NCBI GenBank assembly: GCA_965224565.1 | Contig: CBDCZN010000002.1 | Location: 1,636,309 to 1,700,308 of the forward strand | Origin: Methylococcales bacterium | Lineage (GTDB): Bacteria > Pseudomonadota > Gammaproteobacteria > Methylococcales > DRLZ01 | Direction of reading: 5' to 3' | DNA: 64,000 bases | In this document: positions 2,731 through 50,632 of the stretch, one piece after another | Layout of the letters: each line of letters begins with the position of its first letter | How positions within the stretch are numbered: position 1 is the stretch's first letter | The notes under the pieces: generated by a model | Told to the model about the DNA's origin: nothing | Database searches by the model: none | The model's input: only the letters and a program-made list of their open reading frames with translations | Made by a program: the position numbers and the translations under genes

Positions 2731-2758
2731 ACAGAATGTAAATCGGTTGCTAAATCTT

Positions 2759-2854
2759 CTAGGAGGCTGTCCGAGAATAGAAGTCGTCGCGAGGAAAAGC
2801 TGGTCAAATTCAGCTTTTCCGCAGTAGGTTCTCTATTCTCGGACAGCCTCCTAG
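2759..2854. repeat. 96-bp nested palindromic (REP/MITE-like) element
   Basis: Perfect 22-bp inverted repeat CTAGGAGGCTGTCCGAGAATAG (2759..2780) / CTATTCTCGGACAGCCTCCTAG (2833..2854). It encloses a second 10-bp stem, GGAAAAGCTG (2793..2802) / CAGCTTTTCC (2811..2820). Confidence 0.7.
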
Positions 2855-3155
2855 AGAGTCGCGCTGTGCTTTCGACAATCTTAGCGTAAGAAAACTCAGT
2901 ATATTTCCATAGTTGCTTTGCAACAGTGATTTCAGCCGCACTCCTCATCTGTTCGAATAGTCTGTGCAAAAGCTAGATATTAGCAAGCAGCAAGATATTA
3001 ATTCAAATCATCAGAGAATAACTTCGTTGTTCTTGTGCTAAGGAGCGAGAATTTAATAACTTCGCCAAAATGACAACGTTATTAAATTTCATTCCTAATC
3101 AGTTTTATTCGTCTCACATGATAAAGTCAACATCATGAGATGATAGGATAAAGCA

Positions 3156-24397: not shown

Positions 24398-24688
24398 ATG
24401 AAAAAAGAATTAGGTAGTGCATTAGCAGTAGGTTTATTGTCTAGCACCGCAATGGCGGCTGATTTTCATGCTCTTTCTGGAGTTCAAGCAGCTCCTGCGC
24501 CAGTTCAAGACACAGAGTTATCTGCGACTGAAGGCGGAGCAAGTTGCGACTTTAGTGAAGTAGCTAGTGGCGGTGGCGTTGCCCTGTGTGCATACTTGGA
24601 ATCAGGAGCTTCAAAAGGTACTGCAAAATTCACAGTAGCAAATGAATTACCTGTGACGGCTGCACAGTTCCTACAGGTTGTAAACTAA
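24398..24688 (+). CDS. small secreted protein, single copy of the 'C...C...VAN-LPV...FLQ' module
   Basis: 96 aa with a good RBS (AGAGGAAAA). Signal peptide ...STAMA/AD, ELSATEGG at nt 24515..24538, two Cys, and C-terminal FTVANELPVTAAQFLQVV. It is a paralog of 24912..25211 and of the repeats in 48468..50027. Confidence 0.7.
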   Translation: MKKELGSALAVGLLSSTAMAADFHALSGVQAAPAPVQDTELSATEGGASCDFSEVASGGGVALCAYLESGASKGTAKFTVANELPVTAAQFLQVVN

Positions 24689-24911
24689 CCTGATTTTCAG
24701 GATATGCCACAGTATTACGTATTGATATACGCGTAAAACCAGCTGGTATTTCTAACGGACAAGTGTTTGTGTTCTCAAGCTCTTGTCCGTTGGATTCACA
24801 AGAATCATATTCACTTGCTTCTATAATTCATTTTTTGCGAGTTAGTAAACATCAAATACTGTCTAGCAGAAAGGTCTCGCTCGATGATGTAAGTAATACA
24901 GGAGATAAACA

Positions 24912-25211
24912 ATGAATAAACTAACAATTTTAGGTAGTACATTAGCTCTAGCATTGCTGTCTAGCGCCACAATGGCTGTTGATTTTTATGCTCTCGAATC
25001 ATTTCAAACAGCTCCCGCTCCAGTTAAGGATGTAGAATTGTCATCAGTTGAAGGTGGGGCTACTTGCAGTAGTGCAACGATTGGCGTTGGATCAGAAGGC
25101 GTTGCCCTGTGTTCATTCATTAGCCCAGGTGCATTTGGAGGTACGGCATCTTTTGTGGTAGGGAATGGCATACCTGCTACGGGAGCACCATTTCTGCAGA
25201 CTGTCGAGTGA
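24912..25211 (+). CDS. small secreted protein, single copy of the 'C...C...VAN-LPV...FLQ' module
   Basis: 99 aa with an AGGAG RBS. Signal peptide ...SATMA/VD, ELSSVEGG at nt 25035..25058, two Cys, and C-terminal FVVGNGIPATGAPFLQTV. By eye it shares about half its residues with 24398..24688. Confidence 0.7.
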   Translation: MNKLTILGSTLALALLSSATMAVDFYALESFQTAPAPVKDVELSSVEGGATCSSATIGVGSEGVALCSFISPGAFGGTASFVVGNGIPATGAPFLQTVE

Positions 25212-25585: not shown

Positions 25586-26510
25586 ATGAAATTATTACTC
25601 ACCGCCTACAAGACAGCAATATTCCTGGCAGAATATTCCTGGCAGGAATATTGCTGTCCAGTTTGTCGTATGCTGATTATAGTCAAGTGATTTCATTCGG
25701 TGACAGTCTGTCGGATACCGGTAATTTATTTCAAGCGACTGGTTCGCCCCCTCCACCATATTTTAACGGTCGATTTTCCAATGGTCCGGTATGGAACGAA
25801 ATATTGACAAACAATTTTGGTTTGTCGACGCCCACCCCTTCATTACTCGGTGGAACAAACCATGCCTGGGGTGGAGCGCAGACAAATTCAGCTGGCAATG
25901 TTCCTTCAACAGTAAACCAGGTTGCAGATTTTTTAACCGCTTCAGGTGGTTCCGCAGAGCCTGGTGCGTTATATACTATTTCAACAGGGAGCATGACTTT
26001 GGTAGCGGAATGGTCGCTGAATCTGCAAGCAGTGTAGCAACAATGGTAGATGATTTGAAAACCGCTGGTGCTCAAAGAATTTTAGTGCTCAATGTTCCAA
26101 ATCTTGGCCTCGTTCCGGCAGCAACTAGCAATCCTGTTGCTGCAACTGCTTCAGCAAATCTTTTTAATACGACCCTGACTAGCGCTTTGGCTGGAACCAG
26201 TGGAGTTGAGGTGGTCGACATATTTAACGGGACGACAGATATCGTCTCTGATCCGGCATTATTTGGATTGGATAATGTAACGGATTCATGCATTACTACT
26301 GCTTTTCCTGACTGTTCCGAGTATCTCTTCTGGGATGAAGCCCATCCTACTACAGCTGGCCATGCATTAATTGCTGATGCTGCGCTTCCACATGCCATTT
26401 CACTGACGGCTATTCCTCTGCCAGGAACACTGCCTTTAATGATTTCTGCTCTGGCTGGAATGAGGTTGTTAGGTAGAAAACGTCTTCAATCTGTGTACAT
26501 GAAAACGTAA
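25586..26510 (+). pseudogene. GDSL/SGNH lipase-esterase with VPLPA/PEP-CTERM-like tail, disrupted by two frameshifts
   Basis: GDSL block I is FGDSLSDTGN and block V is FWDEAHPTTAGH. The C-terminal sorting-like tail is IPLPGTLPLMISALAGMRLLGRKR. There are two lesions. (i) A 14-bp tandem duplication AATATTCCTGGCAG x2 (25618..25645) breaks the signal peptide; a single copy would read MKLLLTAYKTAIFLAGILLSSLSYADY. (ii) One missing A near 25992..25995 (GGGAGCATGACTTT versus the expected GGGAGCAATGACTTT) breaks the G-S-N-D-F block III. The result is ORFs 25651..26037 and 25791..26510 in different frames. Confidence 0.75.
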
Positions 26511-26703: not shown

Positions 26704-29574
26704 ATGAGCGCTAATAAAAACGGCATCACAATAATTTTAATAATTCTCATGTTTGGTTTTTTTGGCGAGACAATAGCCTCAGAGGATAATGCACAGTCTT
26801 CCTTCGTTTTATTTGAATCTGGGCAAGTACGCCCTTTGGCGTTATCGCCTAACGGTCGAACACTGTTTGCTGTCAACACCCCGGATAATCGCCTCGAGGT
26901 TTTTCGAGTTTCGAAAAATGGTTTAAAACATTTAGGTTCGGTTTCAGTTGGGCTTGAACCCGTATCCGTGGCAGTGCGAAATAATCGTGAAGTGTGGGTT
27001 GTCAATCATCTTTCCGATAGCATTAGTATCGTGAAATTGAATAAACGTTTTGACAAGCGGAAACCACATCGTGATCGTTTCAAAAAAACACTGGTTGGAA
27101 ATGTAGTACGAACGCTTCATGTCGGAGATGAACCGCGTGATATCGTTTTCGCAGGTGCGTTAAAAAATCGGGCATTTATTACAACAGCCCACCGAGGACA
27201 AAATGTGCCTTTTGATCCCCAACTGACCACACCAGGTGTTGGTCGTGCTGATGTTTGGGTTTTTGATGCCAATAAGACAGGGCGTGTATCAGGGGGTAAA
27301 CCGCTGTCAATTATCACCATGTTTGGCGATACCCCGCGCGCGTTAGCCGTCTCCCCGGATGGAGAATATGTTTACGCGGCGGTTTTCCACTCTGGAAATA
27401 AAACGACCTCTTTGTTTGAAGAAGTGGTTACAAGAAATTCAGGTTTACCCTTTCCACTGACTAACTTCGAATCGCTTGAACAACCACCGACAAGTTTGAT
27501 TGTTCAATTCGATGATCAAAAATGGGTAGATGATACAGGACGTGATTGGAGTGAACATGTTAAATTCTCACTGCCTGATAAAGATGTTTTTGTCATTAAT
27601 GCCAATGCAAACCCACCGGCACAAATTCAAGGCGATAACGGGGTTTACAGTGGGGTAGGGACTGTATTATTCAATATGATTGTCAACCCTGTTACGCGTC
27701 AGGTTTATGTGGCAAACACCGATGCTCAAAACCTGACACGATTTGAAGGGCCGGGAGAATTTGGCGGAACAACCGTTCGGGGCCATACCCATGAAAGTCG
27801 TATTACTATTCTGGAGCAAGATGGTTCTGTCGAAGCGCGTCACCTCAACAAACATATCGACTTTAGCCAGTGTTGCGCGCCCATTCCCAATGAAGAAAAC
27901 AGTCGCAGCCTGGCATTTCCTATGGATATGGCGATTACTGAGGATGGTAAGACCCTGTATGTGGCTGCCTTTGGTTCAAGAAAAATAGGTGTTTTTGATA
28001 CAGAATCTCTGGAAAATGACAGCTTTGAACCCTCAACAGACAATCAGATTAAGGTATCAGGCGGTGGTCCAAGTGGATTGGTGCTGGATGCTAAACGCAA
28101 GAAAATTTATGCATTGACCCGTTTTGATAATTCTATTTCAATTATCGATACGGTCAACAATAAAGAAATAGCTCATGTCCCCATGTTTAATCCAGAACCG
28201 GAAAGCATCGTTGCCGGACGCCCCTTTTTGTATGACGCATCATTCACTTCCAGTCATGGAGATTCCGCTTGTGCAAGCTGTCACATCTTTGCTGACTTTG
28301 ATAGTCTTGCCTGGGATTTAGGCGATCCGGATGCAACAGAAATCAATAATCCAGGACCGTTTTCTCTTCGTCCTGAAGAGGCATTATCAGCGACCAGTGT
28401 GCATTATCGCCCTTTGAAAGGACCGATGACTACACAGAGCTTGCGGGGTATGGCCAATCATGGTCCTATGCACTGGCGAGGAGATCGAACTGGCGGAAAT
28501 GATGAACCGATTAGTCAGCCAGACGGCGGTACTTTTAATGAAGAACTCGCTTTTAAAAAGTTTAACGTGGCGTTCGATGGACTAAACGGCAGACATGGCC
28601 CACTGACTGATGCGGAAATGCAAGCCTTTACCGACTTTGTCTTGCAAATTACGTATCCGCCTAACCCAGTTCGAAATCTTGATAACTCACTCACGCCTGA
28701 TCAGTCAGCTGGAAGAGATTTCTATTTTAGTGATGAGCCATCAGATATATTTTTTAACTGCAATGGCTGTCATGTGCTAGACCCTGACGCGAATAAAGAA
28801 TTTGGCGTTGCTAAACCAGGTTTCTTTGGCACCGACGGCAGATCTTCGTTTGAAAATTTAACACAGGTATTCAAAACACCGCATTTAAGAAATTTATATC
28901 AAAAAGTAGGCATGTTCGGACAAGAGGTATTACCTTTTGATCCGACACAGTCTTCTCCTTTTTTCTTGCCAGAACCTTTAAATAATAACGATTTTATGGG
29001 GGATCAAGTGCGTGGCTTTGGTTTTTTGCATGATGGTAGTACGGATACACTATTCCGTTTTCACGGCTCTTCAGTTTTTGCCCAACTCCCTGAACGACCT
29101 CCTTTACCCGCAAATCCAGGTGGCTTTCCATTGGATGCAACTGGTATCGTCAAACGCAAACAAGTTGAACAATTCATGCTGGCTTTTGATACTAATTTAG
29201 CCCCAATTATCGGACAACAGGTTACGTTGACCAGGTACAATAAAAAACAGGTCGCTCCTCGTATTGATTTATTAATAGCAAGATCAGAAGCAGGAGAATG
29301 TGATTTGGTCGCTAAAGCACGCATTGGAAGACGGGAAGTCGGTTTTCTTTATCGCGGTGATGGTCGGTTTTATCGTGACATAGAAAGCAAACATCCGATA
29401 TCCGATGAAAGTTTACGAAAAAATATACGTAGAAGGCGTGGGGAAGTAACCTATACTTGTGTGCCGGTGGGGTCGGGTGTCAGAATAGCTTTGGACAGAG
29501 ACGAAGATGGGATTTGGAATGGGGATGAATGGAATGCGGGTAGTAAACCTGCAAATGAGTCAATAAGTAATTAA
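26704..29574 (+). CDS. secreted beta-propeller / di-haem cytochrome c peroxidase-like protein
   Basis: 956 aa with a signal peptide. YVTN/lactonase-type propeller repeats (LALSPNGRTLFAVNTPDNRLEVF, LAVSPDGEYVYAAVFHSGN, ITEDGKTLYVAAFGSRKIGVFD, KIYALTRFDNSISIID). Two CxxCH haem motifs: CASCH (nt 28270..28284) and CNGCH (nt 28759..28773). Confidence 0.78.
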   Translation: MSANKNGITIILIILMFGFFGETIASEDNAQSSFVLFESGQVRPLALSPNGRTLFAVNTPDNRLEVFRVSKNGLKHLGSVSVGLEPVSVAVRNNREVWVVNHLSDSISIVKLNKRFDKRKPHRDRFKKTLVGNVVRTLHVGDEPRDIVFAGALKNRAFITTAHRGQNVPFDPQLTTPGVGRADVWVFDANKTGRVSGGKPLSIITMFGDTPRALAVSPDGEYVYAAVFHSGNKTTSLFEEVVTRNSGLPFPLTNFESLEQPPTSLIVQFDDQKWVDDTGRDWSEHVKFSLPDKDVFVINANANPPAQIQGDNGVYSGVGTVLFNMIVNPVTRQVYVANTDAQNLTRFEGPGEFGGTTVRGHTHESRITILEQDGSVEARHLNKHIDFSQCCAPIPNEENSRSLAFPMDMAITEDGKTLYVAAFGSRKIGVFDTESLENDSFEPSTDNQIKVSGGGPSGLVLDAKRKKIYALTRFDNSISIIDTVNNKEIAHVPMFNPEPESIVAGRPFLYDASFTSSHGDSACASCHIFADFDSLAWDLGDPDATEINNPGPFSLRPEEALSATSVHYRPLKGPMTTQSLRGMANHGPMHWRGDRTGGNDEPISQPDGGTFNEELAFKKFNVAFDGLNGRHGPLTDAEMQAFTDFVLQITYPPNPVRNLDNSLTPDQSAGRDFYFSDEPSDIFFNCNGCHVLDPDANKEFGVAKPGFFGTDGRSSFENLTQVFKTPHLRNLYQKVGMFGQEVLPFDPTQSSPFFLPEPLNNNDFMGDQVRGFGFLHDGSTDTLFRFHGSSVFAQLPERPPLPANPGGFPLDATGIVKRKQVEQFMLAFDTNLAPIIGQQVTLTRYNKKQVAPRIDLLIARSEAGECDLVAKARIGRREVGFLYRGDGRFYRDIESKHPISDESLRKNIRRRRGEVTYTCVPVGSGVRIALDRDEDGIWNGDEWNAGSKPANESISN

Positions 29575-31100: not shown

Positions 31101-33122
31101 ATGACACAAACAAATAGCTCTGAAAAAAAATACGCAGTACCGACCCAGATGTTGGAAGAGGCTCATACCCTAAAACTCGCTGGTCAATATGCTGATGCGT
31201 TTACTATTTATCAGAGTTGCCTTGAGCAATACCCAGATAACGCAGAGGCGTTTTGCAGTGCAGTCAGCCTTATCGAGGAGCAGACCTCACTGAATATCTC
31301 TCTTAAAGAATTTGGCATAAACTACAATACAGAAGAACTGCAAAATGCCTTGTTAGCAACAATGCAAACATTACAGGTATCCGGCAAATTTAATGATGCG
31401 CTTGCATACGCTGGCGCACTTTGTACGCTGGACCCGAGTAACTGGATGTTCCCGGCTTTGACCGGAAAACTTTATTTAAACAAGAGGGAATTCGAAGGTG
31501 CAATACGCGCTTTCAATGCCGCTTTACATCTGGCTCCAGACAATATCCAATGCAGGGATAATTTATTAAAGACTTTCTATTATCTGGGTTCTGGCAAGTT
31601 TGATGTAAAGACCAAACGCTGGATTTCTCTCTTCCTTAAAGAGCTAGATACCGTCGATATTGGAGTTTTGGCACGCGTCTGGGTCATGCTGCTATTAACA
31701 GATCCCGATTTCAAGGAAATCATGCAAGGGCAGCAGTATACGAAATATAAAAATTTTAAAAAATGGCTGGAAACTTTATCTGAAAAGAGCTTATCCCAAT
31801 TAAGTAGCGACTATTTACTAGATGGTCTGCGTATTTGCGTTGTACCAAACATCAATATAGAACGATTGCTCTATCATCTGCGTAGAACGATCTTGAACTA
31901 TAGTGTTAATAATTTGAAAGAAGCGCCGACCTGGGCTACAGGTTTTGCCTATGCCCTTGCCGAACAATGTTTTTTGAATGAATATATTTACGAAGAAACA
32001 AAGGAAGAAAAAGAACAGGTAGAAACCCTGATTAATGCGTTGAACAATAAGCAGAATATTACTCCACTTTCTGTTTCTGCTTTAGCTTGTTATCGTCCAT
32101 TGAACTCGTTTCCGGCTTTAACCAAGACGTTTTTAAAGTTACTGGAAAATCTTTCGGAAGACGACAGGATTTTGTATCAGCGTGTGATTAGCCAACAAAT
32201 CGAAGAGCCCGAGATAGAGCAACAACTGAAAAAAGAAATAAAATCATTTTCCACAATCGATAACGAAGTCTCCCAAAAGGTTAGGGATCAATATGAAAGC
32301 AACCCCTATCCACGCTGGATAAGCACGGGATCAGTTGAAAATGATGAAGGGGGTTTTGTCTTTGCAGAGACTGATCCTCTCAAACATTACGATATATTAA
32401 TTGCTGGATGTGCAACGGGTCATTACCCAATAAAAGTCTGTAAGAACTACCCGTCTTCCTCTGTAACTGGGGTAGACATTAGTTTATCGAGTCTCGCCTA
32501 TGGTTTGCGAAAAGCGCAGGAAATGAAGATGGAGAATCTCAAGCTGATGCATGGTGATATTCTTGGGCTTGAAAATTTAAAACAACAATTTGATATCATT
32601 TTTAGCAGTGGTGTTCTTCACCACATGAAAAATCCTGAGGCAGGATGGCAGGTGCTTACAAATATACTGAAACCAGGCGGTTTGATGAAAATAGGCCTCT
32701 ATAGTGAGCTGGAACGACAACATATTACCGATTGCCGTCAGTATATTGTGGAACATAAAATACCTGATACACCCAAAGGTATCAGGCGAATACGCAAAAT
32801 TATTGCAGGTTTTCCGGAAGGCCATCCTTTCAAAAAAGTCATGCCGTTCAATGATTTTTATTCAATATCAATGATGCGCGATCTCTTCTTTCATGTTCAG
32901 GAACAATGCTTCACGATTCCACGTATTCAACAAGCCCTGGATGATTTTGATCTTGAATTTCTTTCTTTTTCAATGGTGATGCCTCAGGCAGTGCAGCAAT
33001 ACAGTCAAATGTTTCCCGATGATCCAGCCATGACCAATCTTGAGCACTGGGATCAATATGAACACAAATATCCAGACACTTTCACAGGTCTTTATCAATT
33101 CTGGTGCCGAAAAAAACAATAA
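31101..33122 (+). CDS. TPR-repeat protein fused to class I SAM-dependent methyltransferase
   Basis: 673 aa. N-terminal TPR-like repeats (AGQYADAFTIYQSCLEQYPDNAEAF, REFEGAIRAFNAALHLAPDN). C-terminal Rossmann methyltransferase motif I ILIAGCATGHYP and post-II/III FDIIFSSGVLHHMKNPEAGWQVLTNILKPGGLM. Confidence 0.8.
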   Translation: MTQTNSSEKKYAVPTQMLEEAHTLKLAGQYADAFTIYQSCLEQYPDNAEAFCSAVSLIEEQTSLNISLKEFGINYNTEELQNALLATMQTLQVSGKFNDALAYAGALCTLDPSNWMFPALTGKLYLNKREFEGAIRAFNAALHLAPDNIQCRDNLLKTFYYLGSGKFDVKTKRWISLFLKELDTVDIGVLARVWVMLLLTDPDFKEIMQGQQYTKYKNFKKWLETLSEKSLSQLSSDYLLDGLRICVVPNINIERLLYHLRRTILNYSVNNLKEAPTWATGFAYALAEQCFLNEYIYEETKEEKEQVETLINALNNKQNITPLSVSALACYRPLNSFPALTKTFLKLLENLSEDDRILYQRVISQQIEEPEIEQQLKKEIKSFSTIDNEVSQKVRDQYESNPYPRWISTGSVENDEGGFVFAETDPLKHYDILIAGCATGHYPIKVCKNYPSSSVTGVDISLSSLAYGLRKAQEMKMENLKLMHGDILGLENLKQQFDIIFSSGVLHHMKNPEAGWQVLTNILKPGGLMKIGLYSELERQHITDCRQYIVEHKIPDTPKGIRRIRKIIAGFPEGHPFKKVMPFNDFYSISMMRDLFFHVQEQCFTIPRIQQALDDFDLEFLSFSMVMPQAVQQYSQMFPDDPAMTNLEHWDQYEHKYPDTFTGLYQFWCRKKQ

Positions 33123-33203: not shown

Positions 33204-33929
33204 ATGATAAAAATCAAACGTTTGATTGGATGTGTTCTTTTTCTTCATATGGTCAATATTCAATGCTTTTCCGCTAATTCTTCCGAGAGCGACTCCTCCA
33301 ACGCCAAAGAAACTATCGTAAAGCGGCATACCTGGAAAGAACTTCGCGATTTACATGTAGTTAAACAACAGGAAGATATGTCGTGTGGTGCAGCCGCCTT
33401 GACTACCCTGATGAGCCAGTACTATGGCGAGAAAACCACTGAGAAAGAGATACTTGACATCCTTCAAGTACGCATAGATAAAGCTACTGACGAGGAGAAA
33501 GCACGCAAGAAAAAAAATGGATTCTCACTCCTGGATCTTAAATATGCGGCGAAACAAAAAGGCTATGATGCCGCAGGTTTCAAGTTAACTTTAGAGCAGC
33601 TCAAACAACTTAAAGCGCCAGTTGTTGTGTATGTCGAACCGTTTGGCTACCACCATTTTGCAGTATTGAGAGGGATTGCCGGAGATCGGGTATTTCTTGC
33701 AGATCCCAGTCGAGGTAATCTTCGTATGACGACCGCACAGTTTGCCGATGAATATGGTGGTGTTGTGTTTGCTTTGGGAAAAGATGGCGAAGAAAATATT
33801 CTCAAATATCCCTTGGCATTGTCTCGACGTGATGACTATGTTCGGCCAAACCTGGACAGGCTGGTTCATGGCGCTAATTCTTTTGGAAATTATGCTACTA
33901 ACTTGACGATTCGGGCGCGATTGCGTTAA
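33204..33929 (+). CDS. stand-alone secreted C39-family cysteine peptidase
   Basis: ORF 33150..33929. The ATG at 33204 (GGAGAG RBS) gives a signal-peptide-like N-terminus, MIKIKRLIGCVLFLHMVNIQCFSA. C39 blocks: QQEDMSCGAAALTTLMSQYYG (Cys codon 33384..33386), then HHFAVLRGIAGDRVFLADPSRGNLRMTTAQF (His/Asp). Confidence 0.78.
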   Translation: MIKIKRLIGCVLFLHMVNIQCFSANSSESDSSNAKETIVKRHTWKELRDLHVVKQQEDMSCGAAALTTLMSQYYGEKTTEKEILDILQVRIDKATDEEKARKKKNGFSLLDLKYAAKQKGYDAAGFKLTLEQLKQLKAPVVVYVEPFGYHHFAVLRGIAGDRVFLADPSRGNLRMTTAQFADEYGGVVFALGKDGEENILKYPLALSRRDDYVRPNLDRLVHGANSFGNYATNLTIRARLR

Positions 33930-34290
33930 TAATTCGTAGTTTTCACTGACTATATTCATTGATAACCGCCTGGAAATTATATTAATAAAATATTCTTAGC
34001 AAGACCAGCCCACTAAAACCATTTTACAATATGCTGTGGACGGCTGATTTTTCATAGATATATTAATGTTATTTCTCATGATATTTCCATAATTCATTGC
34101 TATTCATCAATATTTTAATAGTATTTTATTTGCCAATCTCAATGGTTTTGCGGTATGCTCTCCATATTGTGGGGGATGCGGATTCCATGTTTTGTTGTAA
34201 GAAACATTGTCATTTTAGTCAATAACGGTAAGTTCAATTCCGCAAGACAAAATAGTATCGTTGATATACACCAATAAAAACAAAGAATTT

Positions 34291-36051
34291 ATGTTTAAAA
34301 TGACCTGCGTTATTGCTGTTTTTTCTTGTACAACAGCTTCTTTTGCTAACAATTCGATTGTTTCAGCAGAAACCAAATCATCGCCGACCAGGGTTTCTCA
34401 ACTAGCTGGTGATAAGACCCCTGGATCAGATGAGTCCTCTGTCAAGTTATCCAGTGGCAAAGAGCATAGTATGCTGAAACGCCTCCAAATAGGTTTGTTT
34501 CCCAGCCGGGCAGAGGTCGATAATACTGTGGTCAGGTTACGTCAGCTTGATTTTGAAACCTGGATTATTCCGTTTAATGATGAATATGCAGTGAGTATTG
34601 GAGCATTTTCATCTCAATCGAATCTTGAGCGGGAATTGAAACGCCTGACGGCGGCTGGATTTACAGACAAAATCCAGATAATTGTGGTTGATAAAAAGGT
34701 ACAACACTCACAGAACATCCCTCCAGCTCAGGTTGCTAGATCGACTCTTTTTGATGCCAGGACATCTCAACCCGAAGGGCAGTACGTTCCCAAAAAAAAA
34801 TATGAAAAACTGGAGCAAGAGGTCGAACTTCTTAAATCCCAGATGCAGTTGTTGATGGAGAAAAAGTCGCCCTCAGAGCAATCGTCAAAACCCACAGCTG
34901 AATCAGCTGCTCAAGCCAGCCCGGAGCCTTCTGGAACCGATCCAGTGGTGGTTTCATCGGAAGAACCAGCTGCTGCACCATCAAATGAGAGTAATGATGC
35001 CAGTAGTGATGATACCAGTACTAAAGAAGATAAGAATTTAGCGGACGGTAGTCGTGAAGAAGAGGCTGAGGATGCCAAAAGGCAGATGGATATGTTCTTG
35101 AGAGAACAAACAGTCTTGTTTAAACGTGGTCAGCTCGAGCTGGAGTTTGGTCTGAATTATTCCCAGGATACTGCTGTAGCTACCTGCTTTAACCCAGATT
35201 CAAACACTGGATTTTGTTCGTCAGGCAGCGCGGTTACCCCTAAACTATCTACGCGATCAGTCGATACAAGACTTGGTGTAACCTATGGTATTGCTGATGA
35301 TTTAGCGCTCAGTTTATCAATTCCATATAGCTACAATGAACAGGAAAGTGACTTCACTGGTTTTGATGTCGCTCGTAAAGTGATCCATAATGATCGCTTA
35401 GGGCTAGGGGATGTCAGTGGAAGTTTAAGATATACTGCTTGGCATGAGAAAGGCAGTATCCCTGGCATTACCTTGAATATAAACGCCAAATCTACAACAG
35501 GCGATGATGAAGCAGGCGCTAATGAAACAGGTGACGTTAATCAGCGACTTGGTACCGGGTTCTGGAATGTTGGAGGTGGAATCTCGTTTACCAAGTCTTT
35601 TGATCCAGTGGTTTTTTTCGGTTCAGTCGGATATACCGCAACATTACAACATGGGAGGGTTGACCCCGGGGATCAGATTTCTTACTCTTTCGGCGGGGGG
35701 TTCGCTTTAAATGATCGAGTCAATGTCTCGACAGCTTTTAGTGGTTCTGCTGTACTCCGTACCGTAGTTAATAGATCTGCACCTCTCGGATCAACCGATG
35801 TCCCTGTTCCTGGATCATCAACAGATATCCCTGCTCCAAGCTCTTTAGTTTCTGGTTCAGCAGAGATTCCCGGTTCAGCCCAGAATATTAACTCCATCCA
35901 GTTTAGTTCAACGATCAAAATATCCAAGGCGTTATTTGTAGAACCTTTTGTGGCTTTTGGGCTTACCAGAGAATCAGGCGATTTTACTGTGGGGTTAAGA
36001 GTACCGTATCGGTTTGGTGAGAAGTTTCCACTGCCGTTTTTTCATGACTGA
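34291..36051 (+). CDS. SPOR-domain protein fused to an outer-membrane beta-barrel (MetA/phenol-degradation-type transporter-like)
   Basis: ORF 34261..36051; the ATG at 34291 gives the signal peptide MFKMTCVIAVFSCTTASFA. SPOR-like region (LQIGLFPSRAEVDNTVVRLRQLDFETWIIP..YAVSIGAFSSQSNLERELKRLTAAGF), coiled-coil and acidic linker. The C-terminal half has alternating beta-strand pattern and GLGDVSGSLRYTAW. Confidence 0.65.
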   Translation: MFKMTCVIAVFSCTTASFANNSIVSAETKSSPTRVSQLAGDKTPGSDESSVKLSSGKEHSMLKRLQIGLFPSRAEVDNTVVRLRQLDFETWIIPFNDEYAVSIGAFSSQSNLERELKRLTAAGFTDKIQIIVVDKKVQHSQNIPPAQVARSTLFDARTSQPEGQYVPKKKYEKLEQEVELLKSQMQLLMEKKSPSEQSSKPTAESAAQASPEPSGTDPVVVSSEEPAAAPSNESNDASSDDTSTKEDKNLADGSREEEAEDAKRQMDMFLREQTVLFKRGQLELEFGLNYSQDTAVATCFNPDSNTGFCSSGSAVTPKLSTRSVDTRLGVTYGIADDLALSLSIPYSYNEQESDFTGFDVARKVIHNDRLGLGDVSGSLRYTAWHEKGSIPGITLNINAKSTTGDDEAGANETGDVNQRLGTGFWNVGGGISFTKSFDPVVFFGSVGYTATLQHGRVDPGDQISYSFGGGFALNDRVNVSTAFSGSAVLRTVVNRSAPLGSTDVPVPGSSTDIPAPSSLVSGSAEIPGSAQNINSIQFSSTIKISKALFVEPFVAFGLTRESGDFTVGLRVPYRFGEKFPLPFFHD

Positions 36052-36162: not shown

Positions 36163-36472
36163 AAACAAAATGTATTAAGTGAATGAAAGGTTGTCAATCA
36201 CCGGAATAATTTCATAGTTAGAAATCACAAGCATGCAACTTGCATGTTACCAACTATTTGACTTTTTTAACCAGGCAACTTTTAGACGGGCTTCCATAAT
36301 TGACCCTTGGTAATGTAAGTTTATATTTACACTGTATCAGGAGCTTTCATTCTATTACAGATTGTTGTACGTATTAGCTGAATAGAGTAGTCTGACCCAT
36401 GGGGGTCGATATATAAGTAAGGACGTGATAGCAATATGCATATCACTTAATTTGAATGACAGGAGGAAATAT

Positions 36473-38344
36473 ATGTTTTTTAATGTTTTTAAGTCTGAAC
36501 TGAACTTGTCCACTGACATTTCTCAAAAAAAATCCAAAAACACGATTATACGATTTGCAAGTCTATTGGTTTTATTTGGTGTCTCAGGGCTCTACTTCCC
36601 TAATCTTCAGGCCGCGAGTATTTCTTGTACCTGGGCTGGTGGAGCGTTGGATACGGGTAATTGGACTGACTCGAACTGGACTGTTGATGGCGACTGTGGA
36701 GGGATATTTCCCAATAACAACGGTGATACTTTCGCTGCGACTCATCCAAGAGGGACCATTACTCTGGATCGAGACATCGAAATCGATGAATTTAATCTGG
36801 AGGGGGGTACGCTTGCTGGTTCCAATAATTTGACAGTTAATAAAGCCTTTAATTGGACCCGTGGCACAGTGTCAGGTACAGGGACGATACGGGCGGCTGG
36901 TGGGCTAGAGCTGAATGGTACTTCATCAAAAACTTTTAAGGATAGTGCGACTGTAATTAATAGTGCGGGTCAAGTAGCGAACTGGAGCGAAGGAAATATC
37001 CTCATGTTTCGCGGTGAATCGGGGTTTGTGAACGAGGCTGGTGCGAATTTCAATGTCACCGCAGATGATGGGAAAATGCTCCTGTTGGGCAGTGGCGCTA
37101 AAATTGACAATGATGGAATCTTTACAACAAATTTAAGTAGTGTTGACAGCAATGTAGTGATTAATGCACAAATGAACAACCGCGGGCAGGTGGGTGTACA
37201 AACAGGCGAGTTGCGACTCGGTGGCGGTGGCACCAGTAGCGGATCGTTTGTGGTCGGAGAGCAGGGTAAGCTCAACTTTAGAGGAGGTGAGCATGTACTA
37301 CAAGCAGGCTCCAGTATCACTGGTTCAAAGGTGGAATTCAGTCAATTTGGTACAACCACTATTGAAGGAACCTACAATGTAGCGAGTACAGAATTCAAAC
37401 CAGGAGGCAGAGCCAATTTTGATTCTGAGGCGGCCAGTTTTACAGAAACGCTGACCATGAGCGGTGGTGATTTGAATGGCACTGCGAACGGTGCCTTGAT
37501 AGTCACAGGCGATGCGAATTTCAGTAGCGGTCAAATGAGAGGGTCGGGGCAGACAATTGTGGGCGGTAAACTGGATTTCAACGGTAATATTGCATCTATT
37601 CGAGACGATAGATTATTAATTGCTGCTGGACCGCAAGCCAACTGGACGGACGGAACGATTCTTTTAAGACATGAAGGCTCGGCTATTATTGTCTCAGCAG
37701 CGACGACTTTCAGTATAGAGGCAGATAAAGGCAGAATGTTTGGCCTGGGGACAGTGATTAATCAGGGGGTTCTAGAGGTTAATTTGGCTGACGATGCAGA
37801 ACCAGTAGTGATTAAGTCGAATGTAACCAATCTCGGTTCATTGATTCTCCAAGGGGACAATTTACTGATAGGTAATGCACTGGGCGGTGGAGACGAAATC
37901 AATGTATTTGATAATGAAGCGACTCTCTTTAACGGAAATTTTATCCAGGGGGAAACTGGTACCACGTTTGTTGATATCGCTGGAAACATAGCAGGTGAAG
38001 AATACGACGTATTGAATATTTTCGAAAATGCCTTTCTGAGTGGACTGTTTGATATTAATTTGAACTATAACCCTGCTGATGGTGATTTCTTTGATATTTT
38101 AACGGCAAAGACTATTGTTGATGGTGGACTTTTACTTAGCGGTCGTAGCGGTGAGTTGTTCGATTTTAACATTGTGGACCTGGATAATGGCAATCAGGCA
38201 TTGCGCTTGAGCTTATCAGGAGAATTATCTGACATAGACATAACGCCTCCTTCTCCTTCTTCTCCAGTACCCATTCCTGCAGCATTCTGGCTATTCTTTA
38301 GCGGCTTGTTAGGAGTTTGGCGCATTGGAAATCGACAATCATAA
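36473..38344 (+). CDS. large secreted beta-helix-like protein with VPLPA/PEP-CTERM-type C-terminal sorting signal
   Basis: ORF 36425..38344; ATG at 36473 with an AGGAGG RBS. Signal anchor, then Gly/Asn/Thr-rich repeats (GGTLAGSNNLTVNKAFNWTRGTVSGTGTI...). The C-terminus is VPIPAAFWLFFSGLLGVWRIGNRQS (motif, hydrophobic helix, basic end). Confidence 0.75.
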   Translation: MFFNVFKSELNLSTDISQKKSKNTIIRFASLLVLFGVSGLYFPNLQAASISCTWAGGALDTGNWTDSNWTVDGDCGGIFPNNNGDTFAATHPRGTITLDRDIEIDEFNLEGGTLAGSNNLTVNKAFNWTRGTVSGTGTIRAAGGLELNGTSSKTFKDSATVINSAGQVANWSEGNILMFRGESGFVNEAGANFNVTADDGKMLLLGSGAKIDNDGIFTTNLSSVDSNVVINAQMNNRGQVGVQTGELRLGGGGTSSGSFVVGEQGKLNFRGGEHVLQAGSSITGSKVEFSQFGTTTIEGTYNVASTEFKPGGRANFDSEAASFTETLTMSGGDLNGTANGALIVTGDANFSSGQMRGSGQTIVGGKLDFNGNIASIRDDRLLIAAGPQANWTDGTILLRHEGSAIIVSAATTFSIEADKGRMFGLGTVINQGVLEVNLADDAEPVVIKSNVTNLGSLILQGDNLLIGNALGGGDEINVFDNEATLFNGNFIQGETGTTFVDIAGNIAGEEYDVLNIFENAFLSGLFDINLNYNPADGDFFDILTAKTIVDGGLLLSGRSGELFDFNIVDLDNGNQALRLSLSGELSDIDITPPSPSSPVPIPAAFWLFFSGLLGVWRIGNRQS

Positions 38345-38492: not shown

Positions 38493-39140
38493 TTACTTTA
38501 CACCGAGGGTATTTTGAAAAGTCCGGGTGTAGTTGATTGCCTCAATATGTTCAGGCACTCTTATTAGTACTTGTTGATAAATAACGTTAGCTGCTTCATT
38601 TTTGCCTAGTTTATGTTTTGCACGAGCCAGATAAACCAGCGCTGTTGTATCACTTGGATAGTGACGGGAAAATTCTTCAGCATGAGCTGCAAGTTGTTCC
38701 CATTGTCGTAATCCTTCTTCACAGACAAAAAGACGGCTGTGAGCTGTATAGTTCCAAGGTGATATGGTAACTATCTGGCGCAAATATATCTCTGCCTTAT
38801 TCCAGTCTGCTTGAGCCAGGAGAGGTAGACTTAGACCAAGTCTGGCATCAATAGAGGCGGGGTTGATCTTGAGAGCTTGTTTGTAATATCGAACAGCGTC
38901 GTTGTAATTACGTTGTTGATAGGCGAGCCAGGCATAGCGTAGCAGGACATATTCCCGGTTTTCGTCTCCGTTGAGCAGCGGCTCGATGATCGCTGCTGCT
39001 TTTGCATACTCTCCTTGGTGCTCAAGATTAAAGGTTTGTGTCCACATATCGTCTATTTCATTTCCCTTGACTAAAAAACTGCTGGTGTACAACATACCGA
39101 TAGCTATATGGATAATTAGTTCTTTTTTCATAAGAATCAT
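38493..39140 (-). CDS. secreted TPR-repeat protein
   Basis: 215 aa. N-terminal hydrophobic segment, then TPR repeats (GEYAKAAAIIEPLL, RNYNDAVRYYKQALKINPASIDA, WNKAEIYLRQIVTISPWN, KNEAANVIYQQVLIRVPEH). It is the last gene of the 45075-to-38493 operon. Confidence 0.72.
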   Translation of the reverse strand: MILMKKELIIHIAIGMLYTSSFLVKGNEIDDMWTQTFNLEHQGEYAKAAAIIEPLLNGDENREYVLLRYAWLAYQQRNYNDAVRYYKQALKINPASIDARLGLSLPLLAQADWNKAEIYLRQIVTISPWNYTAHSRLFVCEEGLRQWEQLAAHAEEFSRHYPSDTTALVYLARAKHKLGKNEAANVIYQQVLIRVPEHIEAINYTRTFQNTLGVK

Positions 39141-39167
39141 AAACTGTGTGTTTTCAGGAGCAGCCTA

Positions 39168-40148
39168 TCAGAATGATATCGAATAGTTAGCATAGGCAAG
39201 GGGGAGGATGTATGTATCGCCAACGAACCCGTTTTTATAGCGGCTAAGGCTGAAACCAAACAATAATTTCTGGTTATCAGTCAGAGCCCATTGAGTTGTT
39301 AGTGAAACGCTACCTTTCTGTGTGTTGGACAGATTAAAAACATCAGCAGTATCGCCATCAACCGCAAAGACACGTTCACCTGCCAGTAACCCTATTTTTA
39401 TATTTTCCAGTGCCCCCAGTGGCATGTCATGTCCAAAGTAATGTGTCCATTTGGCTTCAACTGCAATGGTTTCGGATTTTCCCTGGGAACGTAAAGAATC
39501 GGTGGAGTGGATCAAATAACTGCGTAATTGAATCCAGTCATATTTCTGATTAAAGGCGAAACCAACAGTGGGTGTGAATTGGTTGATATCCAGATGATGT
39601 CGATAAATTGAGTGAGCATACCCCAGATCAAAATAGAGCGATTGATTCTGGTTTATCCACGAAACCTGAGGGGCGATGACAACGACATCATCAGTAAAGT
39701 CACCCGGATCGTTATTATCGACTCTGTAAATATCCAGGCGTGTCGAGAGTTTTCCCGTTAATAGCGCTGGTTGAAAATGCAATCTGCCACTGACAAACCA
39801 GTCATCTTGATCAATATCGCCAATTCCTGCTTTAAAGTTAATTCGGGTGCGATTATATCCGAGAGTGACACCGCCTGCTGGGTGATCAGCACGAACAAAT
39901 AGACCCGCACCTGCAATAGCGTTGCGAAATCGTGAATTGCTATAGACACCGCCTTCTCCCGGTATATCCAAACGATAGTTCCAGCTACTTTCCCCAAAAG
40001 CAACTGATGTGAAAAAAATATAACTTAGCACGAGACCGTTAAGGATACCTCTGTTAATTCTGGATAAGACAGGTTTTGGGTTCAAGATGCGCGTACATGA
40101 ATAAATAGAGGTGCCCTTAACGCAGCGATTCTCCATTATTTTTCTCAA
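39168..40148 (-). CDS. outer-membrane beta-barrel protein (family not recognised)
   Basis: 326 aa. Hydrophobic N-terminal segment (LVLSYIFFTSVAFG), alternating amphipathic strands and terminal ...YANYSISF (aromatic C-terminus). The start overlaps the upstream stop (ATGA at 40145..40148). Confidence 0.6.
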   Translation of the reverse strand: MRKIMENRCVKGTSIYSCTRILNPKPVLSRINRGILNGLVLSYIFFTSVAFGESSWNYRLDIPGEGGVYSNSRFRNAIAGAGLFVRADHPAGGVTLGYNRTRINFKAGIGDIDQDDWFVSGRLHFQPALLTGKLSTRLDIYRVDNNDPGDFTDDVVVIAPQVSWINQNQSLYFDLGYAHSIYRHHLDINQFTPTVGFAFNQKYDWIQLRSYLIHSTDSLRSQGKSETIAVEAKWTHYFGHDMPLGALENIKIGLLAGERVFAVDGDTADVFNLSNTQKGSVSLTTQWALTDNQKLLFGFSLSRYKNGFVGDTYILPLAYANYSISF

Positions 40149-43721: not shown

Positions 43722-43723
43722 GT

Positions 43724-44800: not shown

Positions 44801-44808
44801 TGTAGTAT

Positions 44809-45075
44809 TTAATTAATGTGACGTCTGATCTGTTCCAGAAATTCTATAACGTGGCGTTCAATGGTCTTTTCTCCTCCATCAAACTCCCGTGCAATCCTGG
44901 CTTTTAAGTCATCGAGATTGCTATCTTGCTGTAACTGCTTTATCAACCAGAAACCTGTTTCGTTAACCGTATAACTTTTACCGGATACAGGGTCGAAAAC
45001 AAAACCACTGTCACTCAATGCCAGTCGTTTAAAGGTATCTTTATTTAGAGTAGAATCTGTAGATAGTTGTCCCAT
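44809..45075 (-). CDS. PqqD-family (RiPP-recognition-element-like) small protein
   Basis: 88 aa. GFVFDPVSGKSYTVNETGFWLIKQLQQDSNLDDLKARIAREF....IERHVIEFLEQI follows the PqqD beta3-alpha3 pattern. AAGGGA RBS. It is the first gene of the operon. Confidence 0.72.
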   Translation of the reverse strand: MGQLSTDSTLNKDTFKRLALSDSGFVFDPVSGKSYTVNETGFWLIKQLQQDSNLDDLKARIAREFDGGEKTIERHVIEFLEQIRRHIN

Positions 45076-50478: not shown

Positions 50479-50632
50479 TTGTTTTTTTATAGAAAATATA
50501 ATTCCATTCTTTAACTTCTGAAATTTCTACGTTTTCATACGGATTGTATTCACAACAATCTCATTGACCATTGTGCTTCTTTTAATTTCTTTTTACTTCA
50601 ATCTCTGGCTAAACTTTGTAACAATAAGAGAT

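What the first reader, a model, noticed from the sequence alone, without database searches (positions are those of the whole stretch)
24398..25211. Sec signal peptide followed by a canonical double-glycine-leader motif in two small paralogs
Seen in sequence: both precursors begin with a standard signal peptide (AMA/AD and TMA/VD). About 20 residues later they carry V-x-D-x-E-L-S-x-[TV]-E-G-G (nt 24515..24538 and 25035..25058), directly before the first Cys of the conserved module.

Established knowledge: double-glycine leaders of class II bacteriocins and related peptides have E at -8, L at -7, hydrophobic residues at -4 and -12, and GG at -2/-1. They are cut by C39 peptidase domains, normally fused to ABC exporters, and such precursors normally lack Sec signals. 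Here -8 E, -7 L, -12 V and GG all fit, and -4 is V in one paralog and T in the other.

The only C39 peptidase in the window (33204..33929) is stand-alone and itself has a signal peptide. No ABC/PCAT transporter is present.

Inference: a two-step maturation, with Sec export followed by periplasmic GG cleavage by the soluble C39 enzyme.

Caveat: in the 6-module protein the linkers before the Cys also often end in G/GG-A-E-C. The GG may therefore belong to the module rather than to a leader.
Basis: partly seen in the sequence, partly recalled or inferred. Interest (0 to 1): 0.7.

Follow-up and report, generated by a model that had tools for sequence, protein, structure and literature searches.

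The report
Sec signal plus double-glycine leader precursors
Two small secreted proteins carry a normal export signal followed by a second, strongly conserved "double-glycine" leader, and in related genomes their genes sit beside a periplasmic C39 protease and a FapF-type outer-membrane pore, which points to a candidate substrate class for a protease family whose target has been unknown since 2017.

Summary
Both small genes (24398..24688 and 24912..25211) encode a Sec-type signal peptide. A 27-residue pro-region follows and ends in V-x-D-x-E-L-S-x-[TV]-E-G-G. That strict motif occurs nowhere else in the six frames of the window.

Across about 60 homologues, L(-7), E(-3) and both glycines never change. 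The pro-region is more conserved than the mature part.

A profile of the leader alone finds 122 protein clusters. They share the signal peptide and the leader, but the sequence after GG is unrelated between many of them. The leader is therefore portable and is not part of the Cys module.

In other genomes these genes lie directly next to a stand-alone C39 peptidase with its own signal peptide. A FapF-like outer-membrane barrel lies there too. This held for 15 of 23 loci of at least 5 kb.

The best reading has three steps. Sec exports the precursor. The FapD-like C39 then cuts after GG in the periplasm. The roughly 49-residue product leaves through the FapF-like pore.

Cleavage has not been shown. 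This is a new variant of the Fap-type secretion system. It offers a testable candidate substrate class for FapD-family proteases.

The parts
24398..24688 (+). Small precursor P1 (96 aa). Signal peptide aa 1-20 (24398..24457). Pro-region aa 21-47 (24458..24538). Predicted mature Cys module aa 48-96 (24539..24685).
   Evidence: Shine-Dalgarno AGAGGA upstream, read.
24503..24538 (+). Double-glycine leader motif of P1: V(-12) Q D T E(-8) L(-7) S A T(-4) E G G.
   Evidence: L, E and GG are invariant in the family. AF2 puts a helix at residues 38-44, at low confidence.
24912..25211 (+). Small precursor P2 (99 aa), 54% identical to P1. Signal peptide aa 1-22 (24912..24977). Pro-region aa 23-49 (24978..25058). 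Mature module aa 50-99 (25059..25208).
25023..25058 (+). Double-glycine leader motif of P2: V K D V E L S S V E G G.
33204..33929 (+). Stand-alone C39 cysteine peptidase with an N-terminal signal peptide (FapD-like). The catalytic Gln, Cys, His and Asp are conserved.
   Evidence: Pfam PF03412 1.9e-25. NCBIfam FapD 4e-30 and FilB 1.5e-24, both below the equivalog cut-offs. PDB 6mpz, the LahT150 double-glycine protease, 3e-10. Alignment A4.
34261..36051 (+). FapF-like outer-membrane protein: signal peptide, SPOR domain, coiled-coil, Ser/Pro/Glu-rich linker, plug-helix region and beta-barrel.
   Evidence: Pfam SPOR and Phenol_MetA_deg. NCBIfam FapF 2e-20 and FilC 1.5e-13, both below cut-off. PDB FapF 5o65/5o68 4e-14 over residues 268-585.
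48444..50027 (+). Six-module paralogue (527 aa; the likely start is 48468). It has a signal peptide and a degenerate copy of the pro-region (DTLLNATDEKAEC, no GG). Six Cys modules and a conserved C-terminal tail follow.
   Evidence: Weak match to the leader HMM. AF2 predicts all-beta modules, pTM 0.62.
31101..33122 (+). TPR plus SAM-dependent methyltransferase with no signal peptide. It is a constant neighbour of the cluster in Methylococcales-type loci. Its role is unknown.

Best explanation
P1 and P2 are precursors with a two-part N-terminal address. The proposed pathway has four steps.

Step 1 (inferred from sequence). A Sec-type signal peptide takes the precursor into the periplasm and is removed at AMA|A or TMA|V.

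Step 2 (inferred from conservation, synteny and homology). The exposed 27-residue pro-region is ADFHAL...PAPxxDxELxxxEGG. It forms a short helix that places the hydrophobic residues at -12 and -7, and the V or T at -4, into the groove of the periplasmic FapD-like C39 peptidase (33204..33929). The peptidase cuts after GG.

Step 3 (inferred by analogy with Fap). The released Cys module of about 49 residues begins A-[ST]-C and ends FLQVxx. It leaves the cell through the adjacent FapF-like barrel (34261..36051).

Step 4 (weakest inference). Outside the cell the modules act as matrix or fibre subunits, together with the six-module paralogue. That paralogue carries the same module six times and only a degenerate, GG-less copy of the leader.

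The system is a Fap-type Sec/C39/barrel secretion pathway with a new substrate family and an explicit, portable double-glycine leader.
For: Motif and signal peptide are present. The strict motif is found only in these two genes in the window, with 0.05 expected by chance.

Family alignment: L(-7), E(-3), G(-2) and G(-1) are invariant. Mean pairwise identity is 71% in the pro-region and 56% in the mature part.

Leader-only profile: 122 clusters at E<=1e-3. In 112 aligned representatives:
- the signal-peptidase -1 position is Ala in 109;
- L(-7) is present in 104;
- E(-3) is present in 100;
- G(-2) is present in 103;
- G(-1) is present in 89 of 93 aligned;
- position -12 is L, M, I or V in 104;
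- position -4 is V, T or I in 103;
- only 45 keep the Cys that follows.

Cargo after GG falls into 37 BLAST-unlinked groups among 82 representatives. One neighbour carries curlin-like repeats.

Synteny:
- The order small gene, C39, FapF-like, small or multi-module gene is seen in L001, L002, L003, L031, L034 and L035. L044 shows small gene, C39, FapF-like, and L054 shows C39, FapF-like, small gene.
- Two to five tandem small genes precede C39 and a SPOR-FapF-like gene in Methylococcales loci L010, L012 and L014.
- L021 holds an array of about eight small leader-bearing genes (seven ending in GG) with two C39 and two FapF-like genes.
- In all, 28 of 53 non-redundant loci, and 15 of 23 loci of at least 5 kb, show C39 and/or FapF-like genes in the fetched stretch.

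Enzyme: Gln, Cys, His and Asp are invariant across leader-associated C39s and FapD-like proteins. [quoted passage not shown]

Precedent: FapD is periplasmic and its catalytic Cys is needed for secretion. Its substrate is unknown, and the N-terminus of FapE appears to be removed (PMC5557850; PMC6173800). FapE-like proteins next to FapD-like genes in Polymorphobacter and Aeromonas carry a signal peptide plus [LI]xDxELAx[LM]RG[GR].
Against: - No direct evidence of cleavage or export exists.
- No bacteriocin or GG-leader HMM matches the precursors, even at E<=10.
- Position -4 is Thr in P1 and in most of this subfamily, not the canonical hydrophobic residue.
- E(-8) is not conserved.
- In the window the small genes lie 8 kb from the C39 gene, and 8 of 23 longer loci show no C39 within reach.
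- About 15 of the leader-family representatives have a non-G/A/S residue at -1 (EGT, EGE, EGK). Aeromonas FapE has RGR. Cleavage specificity may therefore differ from classical C39 enzymes.
- The second glycine coincides with the G-A-x-C start of the internal modules.
- Structure models are of low confidence, and no fold match supports a fibre role.
Confidence: 0.65

Rival explanations
1. The pro-region is not cleaved. It is a retained targeting or chaperone-binding segment that docks the substrate on the FapF-like pore or on the C39 protein, as the N22 segment of CsgA docks on CsgG. The C39 enzyme would then cut something else, for example the FapF-like linker or plug, as one of the models proposed for FapD.
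For: Rouse et al. left open that FapD cuts FapF or acts partly as a chaperone. The conserved DFHAL block far from the GG has no role in classical C39 recognition. Some family members lack G/A/S at -1. The multi-module paralogue keeps a GG-less version of the region.
Against: The catalytic residues of the C39 enzyme are invariant. Conservation stops abruptly right after GG, which is the pattern of a leader-core junction. No conserved GG lies in the plug or linker region of the FapF-like proteins read here.
Confidence: 0.2
2. The GG belongs to the Cys module, as a structural turn before the first Cys, and not to a leader.
For: Eight of 12 internal module starts in two multi-module proteins read G-A/P-x-C. 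The -1 glycine therefore aligns with a module position.
Against: The -2 glycine position is K, L, D, N, S, F, M, T or V in all but one of those twelve internal modules (the sixth window module reads GGGAEC). The L..xEGG context occurs only at the N-terminus. The same leader ending in EGG is fused to cargo with no Cys module at all. Multi-module proteins mostly lack GG at the homologous N-terminal site.
Confidence: 0.04
3. The maturation route is as proposed, but the mature products are diffusible antimicrobial or signalling peptides (microcin- or bacteriocin-like) and not matrix or fibre subunits.
For: The products are small and disulfide-containing. There are arrays of many paralogues with variable cores behind a constant GG leader (L021). 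One array member has a faint Bacteriocin_IIc hit.
Against: No immunity or ABC genes lie in the neighbourhoods. The machinery is homologous to the Fap amyloid exporter. One neighbouring cargo carries curlin-like repeats, and another cargo class is rich in Asn, Gln and Val. The module also exists as a six-fold tandem repeat protein. The surrounding locus is rich in PEP-CTERM proteins and c-di-GMP regulators.
Confidence: 0.2
4. The small proteins are RiPP-like precursors. Their conserved leader would be read by the nearby PqqD-family chaperone and ATP-grasp enzyme before export.
For: A PqqD / ATP-grasp / PLP-decarboxylase / M23 cluster (38493..45075, minus strand) stays next to the small-gene/C39 cluster in four Methylococcales loci despite rearrangements.
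Against: That cluster is absent from every non-Methylococcales locus that has the small-gene/C39/FapF core. The precursors have Sec signals, which is unusual for RiPPs. The ATP-grasp best matches carbamoyl-phosphate-synthase-like proteins, not peptide maturases.
Confidence: 0.07

Closest known systems
Fap functional-amyloid secretion system of Pseudomonas (FapD C39 peptidase, FapF trimeric barrel, FapE/FapB/FapC substrates; PMC5557850, PMC6173800)
   Same: - Substrates are Sec-dependent.
- The C39 peptidase is stand-alone and periplasmic, with conserved catalytic residues.
- An adjacent FapF-type barrel has a coiled-coil and a plug region.
- The C39 and barrel genes are paired, as reported for fapD-fapF in several phyla.
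- A repeat-containing paralogue accompanies small subunits.
   Different: - There are no FapA, FapB, FapC or FapE homologues.
- The substrates are a new Cys-module family.
- They carry an explicit, invariant double-glycine leader, whereas Fap proteins were reported to lack canonical C39 sites.
- The barrel protein carries an extra SPOR domain.
- The C39 and barrel proteins score far below the FapD and FapF equivalog cut-offs.
- In this window the genes are dispersed over 25 kb.
Double-glycine leader peptides processed by C39 domains of PCAT/AMS ABC transporters (class II bacteriocins, lanthipeptides; LahT150 6mpz, PCAT1 4ry2, ComA 3k8u)
   Same: - GG lies at -2/-1, with a hydrophobic residue at -7 and -12 and V, I or T at -4.
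- A helix is predicted before the GG.
- The leader is conserved and the core is variable.
- There are several paralogous precursors per locus.
- The protease shares the Gln/Cys/His/Asp active site.
   Different: - The leader sits behind a Sec signal peptide instead of at the extreme N-terminus.
- The protease is soluble, secreted and not fused to an ABC transporter.
- No ABC transporter lies in the window.
- Processing would occur in the periplasm.
- E at -3 and an upstream DFHAL block are additional conserved features.
- No bacteriocin-leader HMM hit was obtained.
Fil putative pilus system of Acinetobacter (NCBIfam FilB C39 peptidase, FilC)
   Same: The C39 and barrel proteins give their second-best NCBIfam matches to FilB (1.5e-24) and FilC (1.5e-13). 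An Acinetobacter plasmid gene next to a FilB/FapD-like C39 encodes a signal peptide followed by LSNQEMKDTQGA, a canonical GG/GA leader.
   Different: Scores are far below the Fil cut-offs. No other Fil components were found. I found no experimental literature on the Fil system in the library.
Curli (CsgA/CsgB secreted through CsgG)
   Same: Subunits are exported by Sec and then pass a dedicated outer-membrane channel. An N-terminal targeting segment precedes the repeat units. One protein of the leader family has curlin-like repeats as cargo.
   Different: The channel is unrelated (CsgG is a nonamer). There is no protease step, and the CsgA targeting segment is not removed.

Membership tests
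Double-glycine (C39-cleaved) leader peptides | Gly-Gly (or GA/GS) at positions -2/-1 | tested here: met
   GG is present in P1 and P2 and invariant in 39 homologues. In the wider leader family, G(-2) is found in 103 of 112 and G(-1) in 89 of 93 aligned.
Double-glycine (C39-cleaved) leader peptides | Hydrophobic residues at -4, -7 and -12 on a short helix (LahT150 co-crystal, PMC6363468) | tested here: inconclusive
   Position -7 is an invariant Leu, and -12 is V, L, I or M. Position -4 is T in P1 and most of the subfamily, V in P2, and V or I in 70 of 112 of the wider family. AF2 predicts a helix at -10..-4, but at pLDDT of about 55.
Double-glycine (C39-cleaved) leader peptides | Glu at -8 | tested here: inconclusive
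   E is present in both window proteins. In relatives it is replaced by V, Q or A.
Double-glycine (C39-cleaved) leader peptides | Leader at the extreme N-terminus, no Sec signal, cytoplasmic processing by a PCAT/AMS ABC transporter | tested here: not met
   A Sec-type signal peptide precedes the leader. No Walker A or LSGGQ motif occurs in any frame of the window. No ABC exporter appears in the related clusters.
Double-glycine (C39-cleaved) leader peptides | Match to curated bacteriocin or GG-leader HMMs | tested here: not met
   No NCBIfam hit at E<=10 for the full precursors or the isolated pro-regions. No Pfam hit at E<=0.1.
Double-glycine (C39-cleaved) leader peptides | Demonstrated cleavage after GG by the cognate C39 enzyme | not testable with these tools
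   This needs an in-vitro assay or N-terminal mapping.
Fap-type (FapD/FapF) secretion system | Stand-alone periplasmic C39 peptidase with a catalytic Cys and His | tested here: met
   PF03412 1.9e-25. Best NCBIfam hit is FapD at 4e-30, but 104.7 bits against a cut-off of 330. An N-terminal signal is present, and Q, C, H and D are invariant.
Fap-type (FapD/FapF) secretion system | Adjacent FapF-type barrel with a periplasmic coiled-coil, linker and plug | tested here: met
   Best NCBIfam hit is FapF at 2e-20 (72.8 bits against a cut-off of 700). PDB FapF 5o65/5o68 matches at 4e-14 over residues 268-585. A heptad-like KKKYEKLEQEVELLKSQMQLLMEKK segment and an S/P/E-rich linker are read. The trimeric state was not tested.
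Fap-type (FapD/FapF) secretion system | FapA, FapB, FapC and FapE homologues with Asn/Gln-rich amyloid repeats in a fapABCDEF operon | tested here: not met
   The substrates give no Pfam or NCBIfam hit. They are a different Cys-module family, and gene order differs.
Fil putative pilus system (Acinetobacter) | FilB and FilC at equivalog-level similarity, plus FilA/D/E/F | tested here: not met
   FilB scores 86.8 bits against a cut-off of 475. FilC scores 50.9 bits against a cut-off of 630. No other Fil hits were found.
RiPP precursor peptides | Leader recognised by a co-encoded modifying enzyme or RRE, and a core that is post-translationally modified | not tested
   PqqD and ATP-grasp genes lie nearby only in Methylococcales loci. 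No modification can be assessed in silico.

The most novel reading that the evidence does not exclude
The Sec-signal plus DFHAL...L..[VIT]EGG leader marks a widespread, undescribed route for moving small proteins across the Gram-negative outer membrane. Sec delivers the precursor. A FapD-type periplasmic C39 peptidase reads and removes a portable double-glycine leader. A FapF-type barrel exports cargo of many unrelated kinds, including Cys modules, curlin-like repeats and Asn/Gln/Val-rich peptides. The Pseudomonas Fap amyloid system would then be one special case. Its unexplained FapD requirement would be explained by cleavage of a related leader on FapE.
Probability: 0.45. Interest if true: 0.85.

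Novelty: new variant of a known kind. Interest (0 to 1): 0.72.

Why it matters
FapD-type periplasmic C39 peptidases are required for Fap amyloid secretion. Their substrate and recognition sequence have been open questions since 2017 (PMC5557850). They were still described only as "a protease" in a 2024 review (PMC10903470).

This locus and its relatives supply a candidate substrate class with an unambiguous, invariant and portable recognition motif beside the enzyme. The question can therefore be tested directly with a peptide and a purified protease.

If confirmed, three things follow:
- The double-glycine leader and C39 logic would extend from cytoplasmic ABC-coupled export to the periplasm.
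- A two-part "Sec then GG" address for outer-membrane export of small proteins would be defined.
- A simple leader HMM would be available for mining such cargo, including matrix proteins, possible amyloids and possibly peptides with other activities, in methanotrophs and other environmental Gammaproteobacteria.

Tried and rejected
- **GG-leader or bacteriocin HMM test.** No NCBIfam hit at E<=10 and no Pfam hit. The test is insensitive for a short motif behind a signal peptide, so it weighs little.
- **AF2 of P1 with 39 homologues.** pLDDT was 60, not usable for fold search.
- **AF2 of the six-module protein.** pTM was 0.62 with all-beta modules, but Foldseek against the PDB gave nothing below E=0.2. 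No fold-based functional assignment was possible.
- **Genome-collection scan with the family alignment.** It returned only 7 loci. Context had to come from exact-protein look-ups and the metagenome scan instead.
- **Attempt to reach Pseudomonas FapE from the Aeromonas FapE-like protein.** Only Aeromonas relatives were returned, so the FapE comparison rests on Aeromonas and Polymorphobacter, plus an unassigned Cupriavidus neighbour of the C39 gene (KLDDVRGG, no FapE HMM hit).
- **Literature search for Fil (FilB/FilC).** Nothing was found. A search for recent FapD work was swamped by unrelated acronyms.
- **"GG is part of the module."** Rejected.
- **"Hidden PCAT in the window."** Rejected.
- **RiPP reading via the PqqD/ATP-grasp neighbours.** Considered and kept only as a low-probability rival, because the association is lineage-specific.
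- **Neisseria gonorrhoeae stand-alone C39 homologue (L017).** No recognisable leader-bearing neighbour was seen. Not pursued.
Full report
**1. What is in the sequence**

- P1 (24398..24688, 96 aa) reads MKKELGSALAVGLLSSTAMA|ADFHALSGVQAAPAPVQDTELSATEGG|ASCDF...FLQVVN.
- P2 (24912..25211, 99 aa) reads MNKLTILGSTLALALLSSATMA|VDFYALESFQTAPAPVKDVELSSVEGG|ATCSS...FLQTVE.

Both start with a textbook Sec signal: a Lys-rich n-region, a hydrophobic core, and an A/T-x-A cleavage site with no lipobox. Both have good Shine-Dalgarno sequences.

The strict pattern [LIVM]xxxELxx[LIVMT]xGG occurs only twice in all six frames of the 64-kb window, both times in these genes. Residue shuffles give 0.05 expected.

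The window holds one C39 peptidase gene (33204..33929). It has its own signal sequence. No Walker A or LSGGQ motif occurs in any frame, so no ABC/PCAT exporter is encoded here.

**2.

The gene directly downstream of the C39 gene (34261..36051) encodes a signal peptide, a SPOR domain, a coiled-coil, a long Ser/Pro/Glu linker and a beta-barrel.
- Its best NCBIfam match is FapF (2e-20). Its best solved relative is the FapF barrel (PDB 5o65/5o68, 4e-14 over residues 268-585).
- The best NCBIfam match of the C39 protein is FapD (4e-30), followed by FilB.
- Both proteins score far below the equivalog cut-offs. They are relatives of Pseudomonas FapD and FapF, not orthologues.

In the Fap system FapD is a periplasmic C39 enzyme, and its catalytic Cys is required for secretion through FapF. 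Its substrate is unknown. [quoted passage not shown] A 2024 review adds nothing further.

A Sec-exported substrate meeting a periplasmic C39 enzyme is therefore not unprecedented. A defined recognition motif is.

**3. Conservation**

A homologue search found 61 proteins of about 100 aa from Methylococcales and other gammaproteobacterial MAGs. The window itself comes from a 3.3-Mb contig of a Methylococcales MAG.

In the alignment the invariant columns are K3, A20 (signal-peptidase -1), F23, L41 (-7), E45 (-3), G46, G47, C50 and L92.

Mean pairwise identity is 71% in the pro-region and 56% in the mature part. The supposed leader is thus under stronger constraint than the cargo.

E(-8) is not conserved; it is V, Q or A in relatives. 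Position -4 is usually Thr in this subfamily.

**4. Is the GG part of the module?**

The six-module protein (48444..50027) and its 89 homologues begin with a region clearly homologous to the pro-region: AADF..S..GLQG..P.PLQN..LGAKEFGAEC, and in the window DTLLNATDEKAEC. In most of them the TEGG is replaced by KEFG, DEKA, NELM and similar sequences.

Internal module starts usually read G-A/P-x-C. The -1 glycine therefore coincides with a module position. The -2 glycine and the L..xE context do not.

The decisive test was a profile of the signal peptide and leader only (alignment A3), searched against 1.84 billion cluster representatives.
- It gave 122 hits at E<=1e-3.
- Nearly all are proteins of 90-120 aa with the same architecture.
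- In 112 aligned representatives, the signal-peptidase Ala is present in 109. D-F-[HQ]-A-L follows in about 95-105.
- Position -12 is L, M, I or V in 104. L(-7) is present in 104. Position -4 is V, T or I in 103. E(-3) is present in 100 and G(-2) in 103. G(-1) is present in 89 of 93 aligned.
- After the GG the sequences diverge completely. Only 45 keep the Cys.
- Cargo from 82 representatives falls into 37 BLAST-unlinked groups. The largest (30) is the Cys module. The second (13) is a CxxC plus NIAVxTQxN type.
- A neighbour of one hit has the leader followed by curlin-like repeats, with a weak Pfam Curlin_rpt match.

A conserved leader with a sharp junction and interchangeable cores is the pattern expected of a processed leader.

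**5. Co-occurrence with the C39 and FapF-like pair**

- In four gammaproteobacterial MAG contigs the small gene lies directly upstream of a C39 gene. In the three long enough to show it (L001-L003; L006 is only 1.8 kb), a FapF-like gene and a second small gene or a multi-module gene follow, flanked by unrelated housekeeping genes.
- In Methylococcales relatives, two to five tandem small genes precede the C39 gene and a SPOR-FapF-like gene.
- A contig carrying a different cargo class (L021) has about eight small leader-bearing genes in an array (seven end in GG). Two C39 genes, two FapF-like genes and a sigma-54 activator lie beside them.
- Across all fetched loci, including 38 metagenome contigs, 28 of 53 non-redundant loci show C39 and/or FapF-like genes in the stretch available. 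The figure is 15 of 23 for loci of at least 5 kb. Many contigs of 1-2 kb simply read small gene then C39 gene.
- Eight longer loci have no C39 gene within reach. One is from the cultured methanotroph Methylocaldum szegediense. Linkage is therefore strong but not obligatory, as in the window, where 8 kb of other genes intervene.

**6. The enzyme**

The closest solved relative of the window C39 protein is LahT150, a double-glycine protease domain (6mpz, 3e-10).

The oxyanion Gln and the catalytic Cys, His and Asp are invariant in an alignment of leader-associated C39s and FapD-like proteins. All of them have N-terminal hydrophobic signals.

In the LahT150 co-crystal, residues -1 to -3 are extended. 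[quoted passage not shown] The family consensus has the same spacing. The low-confidence AF2 model of P1 puts a helix at -10..-4.

**7. Link to FapE**

Operons retrieved with the C39 protein from the plasmid collection include Fap-like clusters.
- In Polymorphobacter the gene between the C39 and FapF-like genes encodes MKCAVLLIATLFGGTSAEA|HPLGATITDYELATMRGG|IRL....
- In Aeromonas the FapE-like protein (NCBIfam FapE 2e-12) has a signal peptide followed by ...LADGELAHLRGR. This is conserved across the genus.
- In Cupriavidus a neighbour of the C39 gene has ...KLDDVRGG.
- On an Acinetobacter plasmid the neighbour has a signal peptide followed by ...LSNQEMKDTQGA.

These are leads, not tests. They suggest that the same helix-Gly leader logic applies to FapE, the suspected FapD substrate.

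**8. Mechanism proposed, and what is shown versus inferred**

Shown:
- the sequence features and their conservation;
- portability of the leader;
- gene linkage;
- conserved catalytic residues;
- homology of the two machinery proteins to FapD and FapF.

Inferred:
- Sec export and signal-peptidase cleavage;
- recognition and cleavage after GG by the periplasmic C39 enzyme;
- export of the roughly 49-residue disulfide-capable module through the FapF-like pore.

Weakest inference: an extracellular structural (matrix or fibre) role. The following observations suggest it:
- the Fap homology;
- the six-fold tandem-module paralogue, which AF2 predicts as all-beta with pTM 0.62;
- curlin-like and Asn/Gln-rich cargo elsewhere;
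- the surrounding PEP-CTERM-type proteins and c-di-GMP regulators.

A bacteriocin-like or signalling role for the peptides cannot be excluded.

**9. Verdict**

The locus is not a member of the classical GG-leader/PCAT family, because a defining feature is not met: it has a Sec signal and no ABC transporter. It is not a Fap operon either, because no Fap substrates are present. It works like both.

I found no description of a Sec-signal-plus-GG-leader substrate class for FapD-type peptidases in the searchable literature. I rate it a new variant of a known kind, with high practical interest because it makes the substrate question for FapD-family enzymes directly testable.

Noticed in passing
window 25633..26510 (+): A GDSL lipase with a PEP-CTERM-like tail (IPLPGTLPLMISALAGMRLLGRKR) is split by a frameshift near 25983-25992. 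An intact 305-aa homologue sits inside the same kind of cluster in L012 (11320..12237). This is either a pseudogene or an assembly error.
   Followed up: partly
window 38493..45075 (-): Six genes stay next to the small-gene/C39/FapF-like cluster in four Methylococcales loci, in different orientations, but are absent from other lineages. They encode a PqqD-family chaperone (44809..45075), an ATP-grasp enzyme, a PLP-dependent decarboxylase (best hits FslC and LysA), a urea-transporter-like/M23 peptidase fusion, a 326-aa outer-membrane protein and a TPR protein. Their function is unknown.
   Followed up: partly
window 31101..33122 (+): A TPR plus SAM-dependent methyltransferase (673 aa, no signal peptide) is a constant neighbour of the cluster in Methylococcales-type loci (L010-L014, L025, L026).
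   Followed up: partly
window 36425..38344 (+) and 46711..47568 (-): Two further secreted proteins end in VPIPA...-type PEP-CTERM / VPLPA-CTERM sorting tails (TIGR03370, weak hit for the second). With the lipase, this makes three exosortase-type substrates in the locus.
   Followed up: no
window 50564..52756 (+) and 52782..55499 (-): A response-regulator/GGDEF/EAL protein and a large hybrid histidine kinase lie beside the six-module gene. Related loci L020 and L021 carry sigma-54 (VpsR-like) activators instead. This is regulatory context typical of matrix loci.
   Followed up: no
window 48444..50027 and homologues P0095, P0099-P0101, P0111-P0116: Some multi-module homologues carry C-terminal RTX calcium-binding repeats (PF00353). 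All share a conserved tail, YFHLS.QT.GIE..STPYWR.YP..GLW.GR, of unknown role.
   Followed up: no
L012 10593..10880: A small paralogue inside a tandem array has a decayed leader (LSAIKEKTTC, no GG), like the multi-module proteins. Loss of the GG therefore happens repeatedly within the family.
   Followed up: no
L015 6572..7219 (Aeromonas), L009 5573..6256 (Polymorphobacter): FapE-like proteins carry a signal peptide followed by [LI]xDxELAx[LM]RG[GR]. This resembles the leader studied here and sits where Rouse et al. saw N-terminal processing of FapE.
   Followed up: partly
L017 5800..6549 (Neisseria gonorrhoeae record in the plasmid collection): This stand-alone C39 homologue is 42% identical to the window enzyme. 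No obvious leader-bearing neighbour is present. A possible barrel fragment lies upstream (2737..3279).
   Followed up: no
window 26704..29574 (+) and L012 12426..12728: A 956-aa beta-propeller protein lies between the small genes and the C39 gene. A 100-aa fragment matching its C-terminus lies at the equivalent place in L012, which suggests a past rearrangement of the cluster.
   Followed up: no
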